Source: a virus
Lineage: Duplodnaviria; Heunggongvirae; Uroviricota; Caudoviricetes
IMG/VR virus record: IMGVR_UViG_641522650_000010
Strand: one strand, 5' to 3'
Length of the DNA: 14,905 nucleotides
Under the pieces are notes generated by a model that ran no database searches, was not told the DNA's origin, and saw only the letters and a list, made by a program, of their open reading frames with translations. Below, piece after piece: positions 7,595-14,905 of this stretch (its first letter is position 1; each line of letters starts with the position of its first letter). The translations under genes were made by a program, and so were the position numbers.

Positions 7595-7670
7595 TGGTGG
7601 CCCTTGCTGGATTTGAACCAGCGACCTGGCGATTATGAGTCGCTCGCTCTCACCACTGAGCTAAAGGGCC
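7595..7670 (-). tRNA. tRNA-Ile2 (anticodon CAU, lysidine type; ileX/ileZ-like); tRNA-Met cannot be excluded from the anticodon alone
   Basis: Manual fold: perfect acceptor ggccctt/aagggcc, D-arm gctc agtggtga gagc, anticodon loop cTCATAa, T-arm gctgg ttcaaat ccagc, encoded CCA; closely resembles E. coli ileX as I recall it. Confidence 0.8.
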
Positions 7671-7719
7671 GGGAGCAGAATAATAATGGTGCGTAATTAA
7701 TTCTGCAATCTCATCCGTT

Positions 7720-8769
7720 TCAAACGATTAAATCCTGAACTTCCCTGACTGTCTGCTCAAAACGTCCGGTCTCCAGTTCAACGCCAATCGCACGACGCCC
7801 GAGCGCCAGTGCCGCTTTTACCGTTGAACCTGAGCCCATAAAAAAATCTGCAACCTGGTCTCCCGGACGACTGCTCGCGTTGATTATCTGCTGCAACATT
7901 TCTGCCGGTTTTTCGCACGGATGTTTCCCTGGATAGTACTGCACCGGTTTATACGTCCACACATCGGTGTACGGCACCTGCACCGTCACACCGAAATACC
8001 TCCGCAAATTTTTATATTCACTCAGCAGTTCCATATACTGCCGGCTCAGCTCACTGTATGTGCTGACCAGTTGGTAATGGGACTTTTCCAGTTCTCTCCG
8101 CTGATGTTTCTCTTCTGCCACCCGGGCAAACAGCGACTGTAATTTCAGATAATCGCTTTCGTTCGGTAGCTGCCACTGACTGGCACTGAACCAGTGCGAC
8201 ACCATGTTTTTCTTTCCTGTGGCATCTGCAATCTGTTTTGCCGTTATCCCCAGGGCAGCTCGCGCATCACGAAAGTAAGCAATCAGCGGGGCCATCACAT
8301 GCTGTTTCAGTACCCTGCCCTTCGCCGCATACCCGGCATCTTTCGGACGATACGGCCCCTGATAATGTTCCGCGAACAGAATGCGCTCTGTGGCGGGGAA
8401 ATACGCCCGCAGGCTTTCCTTGTTGCATCCGTTCCAGCGTCCGGACGGCTTCGCCCAGATAATATGGTTCAGCACACTGAAGCGTTCACGCATCATGATT
8501 TCGATATCAGATGCCAGGCGATGACCACAGAACAGGTAAAGACTTCCGGCAGGTTTCAGCACCCGCCAGAACTGCGCCAGACACTGGTCCAGCCACTTCA
8601 GGTAATCATCGTCGCCCTTCCACTGGTTATCCCAGCCCTCAGGCTTCACTTTAAAGTACGGCGGGTCCGTGACTATCAGGTCAACAGAATTTTCGGGTAA
8701 CGACCGGATAAATTCCAGGCAGTCGGCGTTGATTAACTCACAACTGGATATTTTTACAGTATTAAGCAT
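7720..8769 (-). CDS. Orphan DNA methyltransferase, beta-class amino-MTase (N6-adenine or N4-cytosine)
   Basis: 349 aa; motif IV DPPY near the N-terminus (DLIVTDPPY) and motif I FxGxG near the C-terminus (DFFMGSGST), the beta-class order, with a long insert between. No adjacent restriction endonuclease candidate. Confidence 0.85.
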   Translation of the reverse strand: MLNTVKISSCELINADCLEFIRSLPENSVDLIVTDPPYFKVKPEGWDNQWKGDDDYLKWLDQCLAQFWRVLKPAGSLYLFCGHRLASDIEIMMRERFSVLNHIIWAKPSGRWNGCNKESLRAYFPATERILFAEHYQGPYRPKDAGYAAKGRVLKQHVMAPLIAYFRDARAALGITAKQIADATGKKNMVSHWFSASQWQLPNESDYLKLQSLFARVAEEKHQRRELEKSHYQLVSTYSELSRQYMELLSEYKNLRRYFGVTVQVPYTDVWTYKPVQYYPGKHPCEKPAEMLQQIINASSRPGDQVADFFMGSGSTVKAALALGRRAIGVELETGRFEQTVREVQDLIV

Positions 8770-8801
8770 GGATCATTAAACCTGTCTCTGATAGGCTCAT
8801 T

Positions 8802-8820
8802 CTGCTTTTGCGCAAAGCAG
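8802..8820. promoter_or_regulatory. 19-bp imperfect palindrome 33-51 bp upstream of the methyltransferase start; candidate operator
   Basis: ctgcttttgcgcaaagcag: symmetric arms around a central GCGC. Placement fits a repressor/controller operator, but no binding data. Confidence 0.3.
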
Positions 8821-8863
8821 TGGGCCTGAGGTTTGCTTGTGAACCCAACGCATGAGCAGATGG

Positions 8864-8890
8864 CTGGTGGGTGCCCCTAACACCCACCAG
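8864..8890. other. Perfect 10-bp stem / 7-nt loop hairpin next to the upstream terminator
   Basis: ctggtgggtg (8864-8873) and cacccaccag (8881-8890) are exact reverse complements; loop cccctaa. Confidence 0.4.
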
Positions 8891-8904
8891 CCGCCCATTT
8901 ACCA

Positions 8905-8933
8905 CAAATAAAAAAGCCTTCAGGACTGAAGGC
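8905..8933 (-). terminator. Rho-independent terminator overlapping the stop codon of the small HTH-like ORF
   Basis: Minus-strand reading gccttca-gtcc-tgaaggc (7-bp stem) followed by ttttttatttg. Confidence 0.55.
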
Positions 8934-9117
8934 GTCTGTAACAACCGAACTGATAGTCTGCCAGACCCGCCATAACAAGTTGGGTCAGTATTAACTGACA
9001 GCGTTCGCGTGAAAGGTAAGTATTCTGCGCAATCTCCCCGACTGTCGCCGGTTCGGTGACGCTTAATTCATTAAACACCACTCTGGCGGTTTCTGTCATA
9101 TCCTGCTGTTTCAGCAT
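8920..9117 (-). CDS. Hypothetical small protein (65 aa) with a possible helix-turn-helix
   Basis: Internal ATG at 9117..9115 preceded by AAGGGAAAAAGAC; product MLKQQDMTETARVVFNELSVTEPATVGEIAQNTYLSRERCQLILTQLVMAGLADYQFGCYRRLQS. The segment TVGEIAQNTYLSRERCQLIL looks like an HTH. The ORF-track version (8920..9210) starts at an upstream GTG that overlaps the tR'-like terminator, which I consider less likely. Confidence 0.4.
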   Translation of the reverse strand: MLKQQDMTETARVVFNELSVTEPATVGEIAQNTYLSRERCQLILTQLVMAGLADYQFGCYRRLQS

Positions 9118-9239
9118 GTCTTTTTCCCTTTTCCGGTTAACGTGACACACCAATAACTCTTGTCGAAAAAGCCAGCAAGCTGAAAGACAGGTATTCACCG
9201 CCACCAGCACGTTTACTGTACTGGACCGATTTCAGCCAT

Positions 9240-9261
9240 AAAAAAACCCGCTCGCGGCGGG
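9240..9261 (-). terminator. Rho-independent terminator about 70 nt downstream of the Q gene (tR'-like)
   Basis: Minus-strand reading cccgc-cgcga-gcggg followed by seven U (plus-strand A-run 9240-9246). Confidence 0.55.
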
Positions 9262-9332
9262 TTTAAGCTGTGTGGCGAAGTAACCACTCTTAACATACTG
9301 ACATACTTTTTGCGGACCGCACTAATCATTTT

Positions 9333-9713
9333 TTACTTTTTTAGCAGCCAGTCGTCCATCTCCAGTCTTACCCCCAGCACAGACAAACATCCGTCAATAA
9401 ACCCTTCGGCTATCTGCATCTCAATTCGTATTGCTTTTTCGCTTTTCTTTCTCGTCCTGGCTATCTGTCTTTTTGATATTCGCAACAAATAATGAGCAAT
9501 GAGAAGCGAATACTCCTCAGGTTTTTTCTGCTTCAGACGAGCAAGACAGTTTTCAATGATAAGTCCGTCATCATCGCAGCAGGCCGGACGTGGTTTAGTG
9601 GCAGATGGTAAAAGTCCTTTGAATCCGGCAGCGATCGGAGAATAGTCCACCCCGGTGTTACCACTTGCAGCCCATGCCCCCCAGCGTTCAAGAACCATCT
9701 GAATATCACGCAT
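9333..9713 (-). CDS. Late-gene antitermination protein Q (QuuD-like)
   Basis: ATG at 9713..9711 with GGAG RBS; product MRDIQMVLERWGAWAASGNTGVDYSPIAAGFKGLLPS...CCDDDG... resembles the small Q antiterminators of E. coli cryptic prophages as I recall them. The ORF-track TTG start at 9728 adds 5 residues and is less likely. Confidence 0.75.
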   Translation of the reverse strand: MRDIQMVLERWGAWAASGNTGVDYSPIAAGFKGLLPSATKPRPACCDDDGLIIENCLARLKQKKPEEYSLLIAHYLLRISKRQIARTRKKSEKAIRIEMQIAEGFIDGCLSVLGVRLEMDDWLLKK

Positions 9714-9730
9714 CAACTTTCTCCACAAAA

Positions 9731-12596: not shown

Positions 12597-13084
12597 TAAG
12601 CCCCCACGTAATTCCCTGACAGATACCACTCATCACCCGATACAGCGCGCTTACTGCTTTTCCGTAAACACTGCTCACGACGCGCCAGAAAATTGTTTCG
12701 TTCTGGCTGGGAGTGGCTTTCACGGAATGCCGCCATCCACACCGTTGCAGCACGACGGTATAAGCCCCTGGACTCCAGTTCTTCCGCCTGGCGGGTCAGG
12801 CACAAAATCTCCCGCGGGTCGTTAGTGCCGACATAGAAATTGCGCACAGGTCTGGTTTCACGAACTGGTTGCGGTTCCGCCTCCTGCGCTCTCTCAGTCA
12901 GGCGCGGGAAATGTCTGCGTGTATCCCCTTCACAACGGTGAGCCACACGACCACTCTGACGTAATTTGCTTGCTGACTGCAGAACGCACTGCCGTGAGTA
13001 ACCTGCAAAAGCATCCGCAATGTCTCCGGAAGTACACCCCGGATGGGCTTCAATGAATTTCTGAACTTCATTCAAAAGACTCAT
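12596..13084 (-). CDS. PerC-family-like putative transcriptional regulator
   Basis: 162 aa; C-terminal half has ESRGLYRRAATVWMAAF...REQCL, resembling the GLWRRAA..W....R..CL signature I recall for PerC/Pch proteins; ATGA overlap with the O-like gene stop. Confidence 0.45.
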   Translation of the reverse strand: MSLLNEVQKFIEAHPGCTSGDIADAFAGYSRQCVLQSASKLRQSGRVAHRCEGDTRRHFPRLTERAQEAEPQPVRETRPVRNFYVGTNDPREILCLTRQAEELESRGLYRRAATVWMAAFRESHSQPERNNFLARREQCLRKSSKRAVSGDEWYLSGNYVGA

Positions 13085-13905
13085 AATCCCCCCCTGAATC
13101 CTGCCGGGATCTGGCTGTAGTCCACGTTGTCGTAACTGGCTTTGAAGTACGGGTCCTCGCGTCTGGCTGCAGATACCGCAGGAACTTCCCAGGATTCTTC
13201 GAAATGACGATCTGGACCAAAGAACGTGACAGCCTGTTTCACAAATTGTGTGCCGCTATTGCCCATCGCAGATACCCAGCCCGCGTAGCGTTTCACACCT
13301 TCCAGCATGGTTTCGGGGTTTACCCCCTCGTTCAAACGGGCTTTCCAGGCTTTGAAGGCTGCAGATTTTGAATTGCCACCAGCACGTTTGGGATATGCCA
13401 GCCATGCCTGCTCAAACTCCGGAGAGTATTCCGGTCGGTTTGAACGAACTCGCACGGACTCATCAACTGATGCACCAACAGCTATTGGTTCATTGACTGG
13501 TTCTTTGACTGGTTCAAAAGAGTGACTGGTTCTGGGTGAATCTCCTGCACTACCCCTTGGTGCAACTCCTGCACTACCTGGTGAATTTGCTGCACCAGAT
13601 AGTGAATTATTTGCACTACCCCCTAGTGAATCTCCTGCACCATCAAGATGAAGGAGATAGATATTACTTGAGTTACCTTTTTCACCTTTCCGGGTGACTT
13701 TTTTTACCCGCCCGGACTCACAAAGGGCCGCAATATGATTCATCACAGAACGTTTGCTAATCTCGCACTGGTCAGCAATATGCTGGTAGCTGGGCCAGCA
13801 CTCACCCTGATCGCTGGCATTATCAGCCAGCTTAATCAGAACCAGTTTTCGCAATGGATTTCCCACTCGAATTTTCATCGCTTTAACCATCAGCTCCATA
13901 CTCAT
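13081..13905 (-). CDS. Replication initiation protein, O-like (N-terminal HTH, Gly/Ser/Ala-rich linker encoded by iterons, C-terminal domain)
   Basis: 274 aa; RBS GGAGGTG; N-terminal HTH-like LRKLVLIKLADNASDQGECWPSYQHIADQCEISKRSVMNHIAAL; repetitive linker GDSLGGSANNSLSGAANSPGSAGVAPRGSAGDSP coincides with nucleotide direct repeats, as with lambda O and its origin. Confidence 0.6.
   Translation of the reverse strand: MSMELMVKAMKIRVGNPLRKLVLIKLADNASDQGECWPSYQHIADQCEISKRSVMNHIAALCESGRVKKVTRKGEKGNSSNIYLLHLDGAGDSLGGSANNSLSGAANSPGSAGVAPRGSAGDSPRTSHSFEPVKEPVNEPIAVGASVDESVRVRSNRPEYSPEFEQAWLAYPKRAGGNSKSAAFKAWKARLNEGVNPETMLEGVKRYAGWVSAMGNSGTQFVKQAVTFFGPDRHFEESWEVPAVSAARREDPYFKASYDNVDYSQIPAGFRGGL
13535..13645. 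repeat. About five imperfect direct repeats (iteron-like, 21-24 bp) inside the O-like gene; candidate replication origin
   Basis: Recurring GTGAAT...CTCCTGCAC(T/C)ACC units at about 13535, 13559, 13580, 13601 and 13624; moderately AT-rich DNA follows at 13645-13700. Confidence 0.5.
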
Positions 13906-14243
13906 GCAGCACCTCCGAGATGCTTCATGTTTTTTCCGGAGCGAAAGGCTATAAGCGGCATACTGATGCGGTAATTACGGCCCAGCGGTTCACAAATCAC
14001 CTTCTGACATTCACGGTCAACCAGGCTAACACGTAGAACATGCCCTGCAGGCGTGGTGTACTACTGACCCGGACGAGGACAACGGAAAGTCTGATTGGTA
14101 AACCGTTTGAAAATATTCCGGATCATTTGCGCCCCCTTACCTCTGAAGGGTTCAGCGACAAATTTATGAGGCAGGCCAGTGCCGAAGCATCATTAATATA
14201 GTCATACAAGCTAACAGCCAGCGGAGATTCGGCTTTTGCCAAC

Positions 14244-14905
<662 letters not shown>

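What the first reader, a model, noticed from the sequence alone, without database searches (positions are those of the whole stretch)
13535..13645. Iteron-like direct repeats inside the O-like replication gene
About five imperfect 21-24 bp direct repeats (GTGAAT...CTCCTGCACTACC) lie within the coding sequence, exactly where the protein has a repetitive Gly/Ser/Ala-rich linker, followed by AT-richer DNA. This is the lambda-style arrangement of origin iterons embedded in the initiator gene, so this prophage remnant may retain a cis-acting origin even though no helicase-loader gene is present in the window.
Basis: partly seen in the sequence, partly recalled or inferred. Interest (0 to 1): 0.4.

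Follow-up and report, generated by a model that had tools for sequence, protein, structure and literature searches.

The report
Origin-type iterons inside a phage initiator gene
Five evenly spaced, palindromic DNA sites inside a defective prophage's replication gene are most likely where that gene's own protein binds to start DNA copying, an arrangement known from phage lambda but seen here in an unrelated and very widespread initiator family.

Summary
Window 13536-13640 holds five copies of GTGCA-N5-TKCAC (coding strand), spaced 24/21/21/24 bp. Chance expects 0.07 sites in the window.

They lie in the minus-strand gene 13081-13905. This is a 274-aa replication initiator, 98-99% identical to SfV orf39 and mEp460 gp43. 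The repeats fall in the disordered linker after an N-terminal winged helix.

The repeats are DNA-level sites, not peptide repeats:
- Half-site bases stay constant while the encoded residues change.
- In 8 of 19 related lineages one unit is read in a different reading frame, yet spacing stays 21-25 bp.
- Half-site sequence co-varies with the recognition helix.
- Copy number changes by whole units.
- In the 37-kb SfV genome the motif occurs only here.

Directly 3' lies a 28-bp block, AGAACCAGTCACTCTTTTGAACCAGTCA, conserved even at synonymous sites (93% identical codons, against 40% in the winged helix).

The missing helicase loader is the native state: SfV, mEp460, cdtI and ST64B have none in this module.

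The lambda-style reading is supported, although the protein is not a lambda O homologue and origin activity is untested. The local copy looks decayed: L66R in the initiator, a nonsense codon in the upstream ORF, and an IS element cutting the operon.

It is a new member of a known kind, of modest interest.

The parts
13081..13905 (-). Replication initiator gene (274 aa). It has an N-terminal winged helix, a disordered linker, a helical C-terminal domain and a disordered tail.
   Evidence: ORF and translation. phrog_270 'replication initiation protein', E=6e-87. Pfam HTH_36 over aa 17-65, E=1e-10. 98-99% DNA identity to SfV orf39 and mEp460 gp43. AlphaFold2 model: aa 1-88 confident, aa 90-157 pLDDT below 50, aa 160-230 helical, aa 230-274 pLDDT below 50.
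13642..13905 (-). Coding region for the winged-helix DNA-binding domain (aa 1-88). The recognition helix lies at about aa 51-64 (model helix), and the window copy carries L66R.
   Evidence: Fold matches are generic winged-helix proteins, including the DnaD N-domain. Position 66 is L or M in every homologue listed.
13626..13640 (-). Iteron 1 core: GTGCAGGAGATTCAC
13602..13616 (-). Iteron 2 core: GTGCAAATAATTCAC
13581..13595 (-). Iteron 3 core: GTGCAGCAAATTCAC
13560..13574 (-). Iteron 4 core: GTGCAGGAGTTGCAC. The half-sites form a perfect palindrome, so it matches on both strands.
13536..13550 (-). Iteron 5 core: GTGCAGGAGATTCAC. It abuts the conserved block.
13494..13533 (-). Conserved block AGAACCAGTCACTCTTTTGAACCAGTCA (13506-13533) plus a third AACCAGTCA copy (13494-13502). 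The same 9-mer is read in two frames, as RTSH and as EPV. It is a candidate unwinding or helicase-entry element, and it is the junction at which domains are swapped.
   Evidence: AACCAGTCA occurs 3 times against 0.15 expected. Identical-codon rate is 93% here against 40% in the winged helix. The block is found in at least 120 IMG/VR contigs, and in 116 of the 117 in which an ORF could be traced it sits directly after a repeat-bearing linker that follows the winged-helix sequence where the upstream DNA is held. Domain-swap junction. A Shigella boydii cluster carries one more 12-bp unit.
13642..13681 (-). Least stable 40-mer of the gene (30% G+C), on the 5' side of the iterons in the coding direction.
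13084..13434 (-). C-terminal helical domain (aa 158-230) and disordered tail (aa 231-274). This is the presumed helicase-recruiting module.
   Evidence: PHROG hits to 'DnaD-like helicase loader' and 'primosomal protein' families over aa 145-249. No Pfam family matches. The tail type co-varies with whether phage DnaC and DnaB genes follow.
13902..14126 (-). Small upstream ORF, the homologue of mEp460 gp42 and SfV orf38. It is inactivated by W22 to stop (TAG at 14061-14063). Its stop codon overlaps the initiator's start codon.
14252..14905 (-). IS3-family transposase ORF. Homology of the phage early operon to mEp460 ends at about 14244.

Best explanation
The five dyad-symmetric units are iterons, meaning cognate binding sites for dimers of the winged-helix domain encoded just upstream in the same gene. 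Together with the adjacent conserved AACCAGTCA block they most likely form the replication origin of an SfV/mEp460-type temperate phage.

Inferred mechanism, by analogy with lambda:
- The initiator is made from the early rightward operon.
- Its N-domain fills the 5+5+5-bp sites. These are spaced about two helical turns apart, so all lie on one face of the DNA.
- The wrapped complex destabilises a flanking low-stability segment. I favour the conserved block on the 3' side.
- The C-terminal domain and tail recruit the host DnaB helicase, probably as DnaB-DnaC, because no phage loader or helicase exists in this module.

What is shown: the anatomy, the DNA-level constraint, the co-variation with the recognition helix, and the native absence of a loader.

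What is inferred: binding, unwinding, helicase recruitment, and origin activity.

In this window the cis element is intact, but the locus is decayed. It would probably fire only if a related phage supplied the initiator in trans.
For: 1. Non-chance, site-like anatomy. There are five GTGCA-N5-TKCAC sites, spaced 24/21/21/24 bp, against 0.07 expected. In the whole 37-kb SfV genome the motif occurs only at these five sites.

2. DNA-level rather than peptide-level conservation.
- Half-sites are 49/50 constant across units, while the residues they encode differ.
- Among 79 near-identical relatives, polymorphic positions number 5/50 in half-sites against 12/33 in inter-site spacers (Fisher p=0.005).
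- In 8 of 19 lineages one unit is in another reading frame (for example GSVRETP/GVVSERH and PMPSKST/VCHEIAP). Spacing patterns remain 21,21,24 / 24,21,21,24 / 23,22,24.

3. Specificity pairing. The recognition-helix variant predicts the half-site:
- ..RSV[MQ]N.. goes with GTGCA
- ..RS[VA]I[NS].. goes with GTGAA
- ..S[ST]VK.. goes with GGGCA
- ..[ST]AVR.. goes with TGCCA

Natural recombinants carry a foreign winged helix together with its own iterons on an SfV-type C-terminus (P0060, P0068, P0072).

4. The copy number differs between relatives by gain or loss of repeat units; proteins with 1 to 9 units are seen. Lambda (4 iterons) and Stx phages (6 iterons) differ in the same way (PMC7466680).

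5. Position. The array lies in the disordered inter-domain linker, with pLDDT below 50 over aa 90-157. Lambda's annotated iterons lie at codons about 116-144 of O, spaced 20/24/23 bp.

6. The three least stable 40-mers of the gene are the two flanks and the array itself.

7. Complete phages SfV, mEp460, cdtI and ST64B carry this gene with no loader or helicase gene in the module, and SfV has none annotated anywhere in its genome. The gene must therefore suffice on the phage side.
Against: - There is no experimental datum for any member. I found no paper describing this family's origin.
- The flanks are only moderately AT-rich (30% and 41.5% G+C, against 22% in lambda), so the unwinding site is not obvious.
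- No DnaA box or promoter-like site lies nearby.
- The protein has no detectable sequence similarity to lambda O, so the mechanism is transferred by analogy only.
- The 117 loci were selected through the conserved block itself, so its presence there is by construction. The independent sample is the tblastn set, where 9 of 11 distinct types have the block and mEp554 and phiP27 lack it.
- The pairwise codon statistics are not phylogenetically independent.
- The local initiator carries L66R at a conserved hydrophobic position and may be inactive.
Confidence: 0.75

Rival explanations
1. The repeats are only a by-product of a low-complexity Gly/Ser/Ala/Pro peptide linker that grows and shrinks by replication slippage. 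On this reading the DNA has no cis function.
For: The segment encodes a disordered linker. In the window all spacings are multiples of three. Copy number differs between relatives by gain or loss of repeat units, which is how slippage-prone coding repeats behave.
Against: Across relatives the same DNA unit is read in two or three frames, giving unrelated peptides. The constant nucleotides cross codon boundaries and include third positions, while the residues vary. The units are dyad-symmetric with a fixed 5+5+5 layout. Half-sites are less polymorphic than spacers. The half-site sequence follows the recognition helix.
Confidence: 0.04
2. The sites do bind the initiator, but they act in regulation rather than as the origin. 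Possibilities are a transcriptional roadblock, autoregulation of the early operon, or titration and handcuffing for copy control. The real origin would lie elsewhere.
For: Plasmid iterons serve both initiation and control (PMC4980987). The AT-richness of the flanks is modest. No origin assay exists for this family.
Against: The sites lie 260-370 bp inside the coding region, not at a promoter, and no promoter-like site is nearby. The motif occurs nowhere else in SfV, so no second iteron cluster is available to be the origin. The arrangement matches the experimentally defined lambda origin and the repeat arrays noted in P22 and L (PMC8022706; PMC7466680). The adjacent block is under DNA-level constraint.
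Confidence: 0.12
3. The repeats and the conserved block are mainly a recombination joint. Their shared sequence lets phages exchange the N-terminal and C-terminal halves of the initiator, and their conservation reflects frequent exchange rather than function.
For: Natural chimeras break exactly at the block (P0060, P0068, P0072). The same N-domain plus block is joined to at least five kinds of downstream partner.
Against: This may account for the block but not for the iterons, which differ between lineages and so offer no homology for exchange. The block is identical at synonymous sites across phages of Vibrio, Stenotrophomonas, Aggregatibacter and enterobacteria, while the neighbouring winged-helix codons are saturated. 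That pattern indicates purifying selection on the DNA or on the peptide.
Confidence: 0.05
4. The sites are bound by a different protein, either a host factor or another phage regulator such as the adjacent PerC-like or Rha-like proteins.
For: Binding has not been tested. Several DNA-binding proteins are encoded nearby.
Against: The half-site sequence co-varies with the recognition helix of the initiator itself and moves with it in chimeras. The neighbouring genes differ among lineages that keep the arrangement.
Confidence: 0.04

Closest known systems
Phage lambda ori (four 18-19-bp iterons plus an AT-rich tract inside gene O), and the 6-iteron origins of Stx phages 933W and P27
   Same: An array of dyad-symmetric repeats spaced about two helical turns apart (lambda 20/24/23 bp; here 24/21/21/24 bp). 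The array is embedded in the initiator gene, in the part that encodes the linker after the N-terminal DNA-binding domain. The iteron number varies between relatives and adds residues to the protein (PMC7466680).
   Different: The initiator shows no detectable sequence similarity to lambda O and belongs to Pfam HTH_36, with a weak DnaD_N hit, rather than the lambda O family. There is no P-type loader gene. The flank is only 30-41% G+C, against 22% in lambda. A conserved AACCAGTCA block follows the iterons in the position where lambda has its AT-rich tract.
P22 gene 18 and phage L gene 18 origins (repeats inside the initiator gene)
   Same: The published view is that distantly related ori-binding proteins each carry their own distinct repeats within their coding regions (PMC8022706). 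This is the situation found here.
   Different: In those phages the repeats were noted for single genomes, and a DnaB-type helicase gene (gene 12) follows. Here the module is initiator-only. The evidence here is comparative: frame independence and helix/half-site co-variation.
Iteron plasmid origins (pSC101, R6K, RK2, pPS10 Rep/iteron systems)
   Same: Repeated initiator sites adjoin a DNA-unwinding element that often contains short direct repeats. The three to four GAACCAGTCA 12-mers here resemble such repeat-containing unwinding elements (PMC4980987).
   Different: Plasmid iterons lie outside the rep gene and are usually accompanied by DnaA boxes, and none is present here. Plasmid Rep proteins have tandem winged-helix domains, whereas this protein has one winged helix plus an unrelated helical domain.
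DnaD-like / 'primosomal protein' phage replication proteins (PHROG 1701, 9327, 186)
   Same: The C-terminal half (aa 145-249) matches these PHROG families, and the N-domain weakly matches DnaD_N.
   Different: The Pfam DnaD_N score of 22.1 bits is below the 27-bit cut-off. No Pfam family matches the C-terminal domain. Those names are annotations, not tested functions.

Membership tests
Lambda-style 'origin inside the initiator gene' (architectural class) | Three or more direct repeats of about 15-20 bp with internal dyad symmetry, spaced about two helical turns apart | tested here: met
   Five GTGCA-N5-TKCAC units spaced 24/21/21/24 bp, against 0.07 expected. Lambda reference spacing is 20/24/23 bp.
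Lambda-style 'origin inside the initiator gene' (architectural class) | The repeats lie within the initiator ORF, in the linker between the DNA-binding domain and the C-terminal domain | tested here: met
   HTH_36 covers aa 17-65. The repeats encode aa 88-124. The model gives pLDDT below 50 for aa 90-157.
Lambda-style 'origin inside the initiator gene' (architectural class) | The repeats are specific to the cognate initiator (specificity pair) | tested here: met
   Shown by co-variation only. The recognition-helix variant predicts the half-site, and the two move together in chimeras. Physical binding was not tested.
Lambda-style 'origin inside the initiator gene' (architectural class) | An adjacent strongly AT-rich unwinding region | tested here: inconclusive
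   The flanks are the least stable parts of the gene, but they are 30% and 41.5% G+C against 22% in lambda.
Lambda-style 'origin inside the initiator gene' (architectural class) | The fragment supports initiator-dependent replication | not testable with these tools
   Needs an ori-plasmid assay or replication-intermediate mapping.
Lambda O protein family | Sequence homology to lambda O | tested here: not met
   BLASTP against lambda O gives no significant alignment; the best E-value is 0.019 over 22 residues. The Pfam hits are HTH_36, DnaD_N and HTH_11, not the lambda O family.
Lambda O protein family | A cognate P-type helicase loader encoded immediately downstream | tested here: not met
   The next genes are a PerC-like regulator and a Dam methylase. 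The same is true in SfV, mEp460, cdtI and ST64B.
HTH_36-type phage replication initiators (phrog_270; SfV orf39 group) | Profile match above threshold and full-length similarity to members | tested here: met
   HTH_36 scores 41.5 bits against a 25-bit cut-off. phrog_270 E=6e-87. 98-99% identity to SfV orf39 and mEp460 gp43. 5427 related protein clusters.
Iteron-plasmid origins | DnaA box(es) next to the iterons | tested here: not met
   The only TTWTNCACA match in the window is at 2423, which is chance level.

The most novel reading that the evidence does not exclude
The 28-bp block AGAACCAGTCACTCTTTTGAACCAGTCA that abuts the last iteron may be a host-independent origin core. It could be an unwinding or helicase-entry site, or a site for a conserved surface of the initiator.

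On this reading the block is shared by thousands of HTH_36 initiator genes, from Vibrio and Aggregatibacter to Escherichia. It also serves as the fixed joint at which 'winged helix plus iterons' specificity cassettes are exchanged onto alternative helicase-recruiting C-terminal modules.

In the loader-less SfV form, a short C-terminal tail (...VDYSQIPAGFRG) would recruit host DnaB-DnaC directly.

A practical consequence would be that iteron specificity can be read from the recognition helix.
Probability: 0.35. Interest if true: 0.55.

Novelty: new member of a known kind. Interest (0 to 1): 0.35.

Why it matters
- **Annotation.** This gene is annotated only as 'helix-turn-helix domain-containing protein' in the named database entries I saw, across Escherichia, Shigella, Salmonella, Klebsiella and related genera, in a family of 5427 related clusters. 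Recognising that it carries its own origin gives a rule for locating origins in a very common prophage family. The rule is winged helix, then 3-5 dyad units at 21-24 bp, then the AACCAGTCA block.

- **A system for study.** The natural set of matched initiator/iteron pairs could be used to study winged-helix specificity. The loader-less module also asks how a phage initiator recruits the host helicase without a P or DnaC partner.

- **This locus.** An intact origin in a decayed prophage could titrate the initiator of an incoming SfV-type phage. It could also fire in situ if that initiator is supplied. Both effects are documented for ectopic lambda origins (PMC4488673, PMC3349717).

Tried and rejected
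- **Literature.** Six full-text searches and two look-ups by id found no description of this family's origin. The SfV genome paper and the Weigel & Seitz 2006 review are not held. My recollection that the review describes initiator-only modules is therefore unverified. The pIGMS31 preprint proved irrelevant.

- **C-terminal domain.** There is no Pfam hit, no useful NCBIfam hit and no PDB sequence hit. The Foldseek search returned only generic winged-helix folds for the N-domain, all with E of 0.014 or above. I did not pursue this domain further.

- **Sampling.** The first scan of viral contigs with the N-domain alignment returned only near-identical genes. It was useful for copy-number and polymorphism counts but not for diversity. 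Diversity came from tblastn against phages and from a scan with the block pattern.

- **Local signals.** DnaA boxes, sigma-70-like promoters and Rfam families gave nothing at the locus. A terminator-like hairpin at 13682-13697 on the plus strand is at chance frequency.

- **GC skew.** I considered cumulative GC skew as an origin indicator and did not use it. The local profile shows no turning point at the array, and I did not expect skew to be informative for a small, unidirectionally transcribed phage region (my judgement, not tested).

- **Rejected reading.** I rejected the idea that the missing loader gene reflects deletion in this remnant. Complete phages have the same gene order.

Full report
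**1. What is there**

The finding lies in a minus-strand ORF, window 13081-13905, of 274 aa.

- The protein matches PHROG 270 'replication initiation protein' (E=6e-87).
- Its N-terminus matches Pfam HTH_36 over aa 17-65 at 41.5 bits, against a cut-off of 25.
- The DNA is 98-99% identical to the replication genes of phages SfV (orf39), mEp460 (gp43), cdtI, Ayreon and Stx2c phages. It is also present in a large share of complete E. coli genomes.
- A database search finds 5427 related protein clusters. Almost all are named only 'helix-turn-helix domain-containing protein'.

**2.

- Tandem Repeats Finder and the repeat finder both report the array.
- On the coding strand each unit has the core GTGCA-N5-T(T/G)CAC. 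The cores lie at 13626-13640, 13602-13616, 13581-13595, 13560-13574 and 13536-13550, spaced 24, 21, 21, 24 bp.
- These are the only matches to the pattern in the window. Shuffles expect 0.07, and none of 200 reached the observed count.
- In the complete 37-kb SfV genome the pattern also occurs only at the five homologous sites.

**3. DNA sites or a repetitive peptide?**

Three lines of evidence say these are DNA sites.

*(a) Within the window.* The codon-by-codon print-out shows that the ten half-site bases are constant in 49 of 50 cases, including all third-codon positions they cover. The codons they belong to specify different residues:
- GGT/AGT give G/S.
- GAT/AAT/GTT give D/N/V.
- TCA/GCA give S/A.
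- CTA/CCA give L/P.

The central five bases and the inter-site spacers vary.

*(b) Among near-identical relatives.* In 79 same-length relatives, variable positions number 5/50 in half-sites, 3/25 in centres and 12/33 in spacers. Half-sites against spacers gives Fisher p=0.005.

*(c) Across diverged relatives.* Every gene with the conserved N-domain has 2-8 dyad units at the same place:

| Lineage | Unit |
|---|---|
| Vibrio D160 | GTGAC-N5-GTCAC |
| mEp554 | GTGTC-AGAGA-GACAC |
| Stx2a_F451, SI5 | GGGCA-GGAGC-TGCCC |
| Klebsiella, Serratia lineages (Stenotrophomonas: CTATGC-N9-GCATAG) | TGCCA-N5-TGGCA |
| Other lineages | GTGAA-N5-TGCAC |
| Other lineages | GTGTA-N5-TACAC |

In 8 of 19 lineage representatives one unit sits in a different reading frame from its neighbours. 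This gives unrelated peptides such as GSVRETP/GVVSERH and PMPSKST/VCHEIAP. Spacing nonetheless stays 21-25 bp, apart from two 44-45-bp gaps where a degenerate unit was not called, in the patterns 21,21,24 / 24,21,21,24 / 23,22,24.

**4. Link to the protein**

- The recognition-helix variant predicts the half-site..RSV[MQ]N.. with GTGCA..RS[VA]I[NS].. with GTGAA..S[ST]VK.. with GGGCA, and ..[ST]AVR.. with TGCCA.
- Natural chimeras carry a foreign winged helix together with its own iterons on an SfV-type C-terminal half (P0060, P0068, P0072).
- An AlphaFold2 model has mean pLDDT 60, which is adequate for domain boundaries only. It gives a confident winged helix for aa 1-88, disorder for aa 90-157, a helical domain for aa 160-230 and a disordered tail.
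- Fold matches are generic winged-helix proteins.
- The cis sites are therefore written into a protein segment that has no fold to preserve.

**5. Copy number**

- Among the 80 nearest IMG/VR genes, 69 of the 80 carry five units.
- Eight have four matches to the strict pattern while keeping the standard 272-aa length, so these are point changes in a core, not lost units.
- Two have six units and one has seven.
- cdtI has eight, through a 66-bp three-unit duplication.
- Protein clusters range from one to nine units, and the two-unit form was seen on 64 contigs.
- Lambda (4 iterons) and Stx phages (6 iterons) differ in the same way. The two iterons next to the AT-rich tract suffice for lambda replication in vitro (PMC7466680).

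**6. The flanks**

The three least stable 40-mers of the gene are the 5' flank (13642-13681, 30% G+C), the array itself, and the 3' flank.

The 3' flank is remarkable for another reason. The 28-bp sequence AGAACCAGTCACTCTTTTGAACCAGTCA abuts the last iteron.
- It contains AACCAGTCA twice, and a third copy follows in the window (3 copies against 0.15 expected).
- The 9-mer is read in two frames, as RTSH and as EPV.
- The block is nearly identical in DNA among phages of Escherichia, Vibrio, Stenotrophomonas, Klebsiella, Serratia and Aggregatibacter.
- Where two homologues have the same amino acid, they use the same codon in 93% of cases in the block (407/437), against 40% in the winged helix (781/1951). 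These pairs are not phylogenetically independent, so the figure is descriptive.
- A scan of viral contigs found the block in at least 120 contigs. In 116 of the 117 in which an ORF could be traced, the block sits directly after a repeat-bearing linker that follows the winged-helix sequence where the upstream DNA is held.
- That sample was selected through the block itself. In the independent tblastn sample, 9 of 11 types have it, and mEp554 and phiP27 do not.
- A Shigella boydii cluster has one more 12-bp unit.

I read the block as the best candidate for the unwinding or helicase-entry element. This is inference.

**7. The helicase-loader question**

- No loader or helicase gene is in the window.
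- In SfV, mEp460, cdtI and ST64B the gene order is cro, (genes), Rha-like or antirepressor-like regulator, (small ORF; not annotated in ST64B), initiator, PerC-like regulator (not annotated in cdtI), Dam methylase, RusA.
- No loader is annotated in that module, and none is annotated anywhere in the SfV genome.
- Relatives with the same N-domain are followed by other partners: DnaC plus DnaB (PhiR49_2, a Citrobacter prophage), a primase-helicase (Stx2a_F451, SI5), a P-like loader (RothD, S1249) or DnaB alone (BUCT708). phiP27, which shares the C-terminal domain but has a divergent N-terminus, is also followed by DnaC plus DnaB.
- The extreme C-terminal tail differs accordingly. ...VDYSQIPAGFRG goes with the loader-less form, and two other tails go with DnaC plus DnaB.
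- The loader-less form therefore presumably recruits the host helicase directly. This is inferred, not shown.

**8. Comparison with what is known**

- Lambda's annotated iterons are 18 bp, spaced 20/24/23 bp, at codons about 116-144 of O. A 22% G+C tract follows them.
- The architecture here is the same, but the protein shows no similarity to lambda O. Membership of the O family is therefore rejected, while 'works like lambda ori' stands.
- Published comparisons of lambda, P22 and L already state that distantly related ori-binding proteins each carry their own repeats within their coding regions (PMC8022706).
- I found no paper describing the origin of the SfV/ST64B/mEp460 group.
- My verdict is a new member of a known kind.

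**9. State of this copy**

The iteron cores are identical to those of SfV and mEp460. The only difference is one spacer substitution (G to A, Gly to Arg) between units 4 and 5.

The locus is decaying:
- The initiator has L66R at a position that is L or M in every homologue seen.
- Its stop codon has mutated, adding two residues.
- The small upstream ORF, whose stop overlaps the initiator's start, has W22 to stop.
- The early operon is cut by an IS3-family element at about 14244.

The cis element is thus probably intact while the trans functions are doubtful. It could still respond to, or titrate, the initiator of a related phage, as ectopic lambda origins do (PMC4488673, PMC3349717).

**10. 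Negative results at the locus**

There is no Rfam family, no DnaA box and no sigma-70-like promoter here.

Noticed in passing
window 13494-13533 (-); also loci L097-L216: A 28-bp block, AGAACCAGTCACTCTTTTGAACCAGTCA, lies directly 3' of the iterons. It is conserved at synonymous sites (93% identical codons against 40% in the winged helix) across phages of distant hosts. It contains the same 9-mer in two reading frames. It is also the junction at which N-terminal and C-terminal halves of the initiator are exchanged.
   Followed up: partly
window 13708-13710 (codon 66 of the initiator) and 13081-13089: The initiator carries L66R at a position that is L or M in all homologues. Its TGA stop has changed to GGA, which adds two residues (FRGGL). 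A Shigella boydii protein cluster (P0015) shares the FRGGL end and the spacer Gly-to-Arg change, but it keeps L66 and has one extra EPVK 12-bp unit.
   Followed up: partly
window 13902-14126 (-): The 74-aa ORF upstream of the initiator (homologue of mEp460 gp42 and SfV orf38) has a nonsense mutation, W22 to TAG at 14061-14063. Its stop codon overlaps the initiator's ATG, so translational coupling may be lost.
   Followed up: yes
window ~14244-14905: An IS3-family element (transposase ORF 14252-14905, minus strand) truncates the Rha-like early gene. This separates the initiator gene from the phage early promoter region.
   Followed up: partly
window 1-4780: A cluster of insertion sequences: three IS66-family ORFs (1-2389), an IS3-family orfB (2492-3310) and an IS2-like element (3507-4780, minus strand). 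These are assigned from their translations alone, with no family search run. The IS density, together with the Shigella boydii cluster P0015 that shares two of the window's initiator variants, suggests a Shigella-type genome.
   Followed up: no
window 4957-9728 (-): A late region of Stx-phage type without toxin genes. It holds antiterminator Q (9333-9728), an N6/N4 DNA methylase (7720-8769), three tRNA genes (7424-7670), the sRNA family STnc100 (7141-7345) and a SASA/DUF6645 esterase-like gene (4957-6651). The gap of about 490 bp between the sRNA and the esterase is too short to hold stxAB.
   Followed up: no
loci L005, L007, L218 and alignment A3: Three alternative C-terminal tails occur on otherwise similar initiators. 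...VDYSQIPAGFRG is found where no loader follows. ...SDKFGKSSDKLTF and ...QDYGQ..C[ND]W are found where phage DnaC-like and DnaB-like genes follow. This suggests that the tail selects the helicase partner.
   Followed up: partly
locus L007 (phiP27 L17) and L015 (mEp554): More distant HTH_36 initiators that lack the conserved block still carry in-gene dyad repeats read in different frames. In phiP27 the unit is TTGACCCTTCAGAWTCTGG, read as FDPSDSG and LTLQNLD. In mEp554 it is GGTAGTGTCAGAGAGACACC, present four times.
   Followed up: partly
window 13682-13707 (+): A hairpin, TCACCTTTCCGGGTGA, followed by a T7 run lies on the strand antisense to the initiator gene. It looks like a terminator but occurs at chance frequency in the scan.
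   Followed up: no
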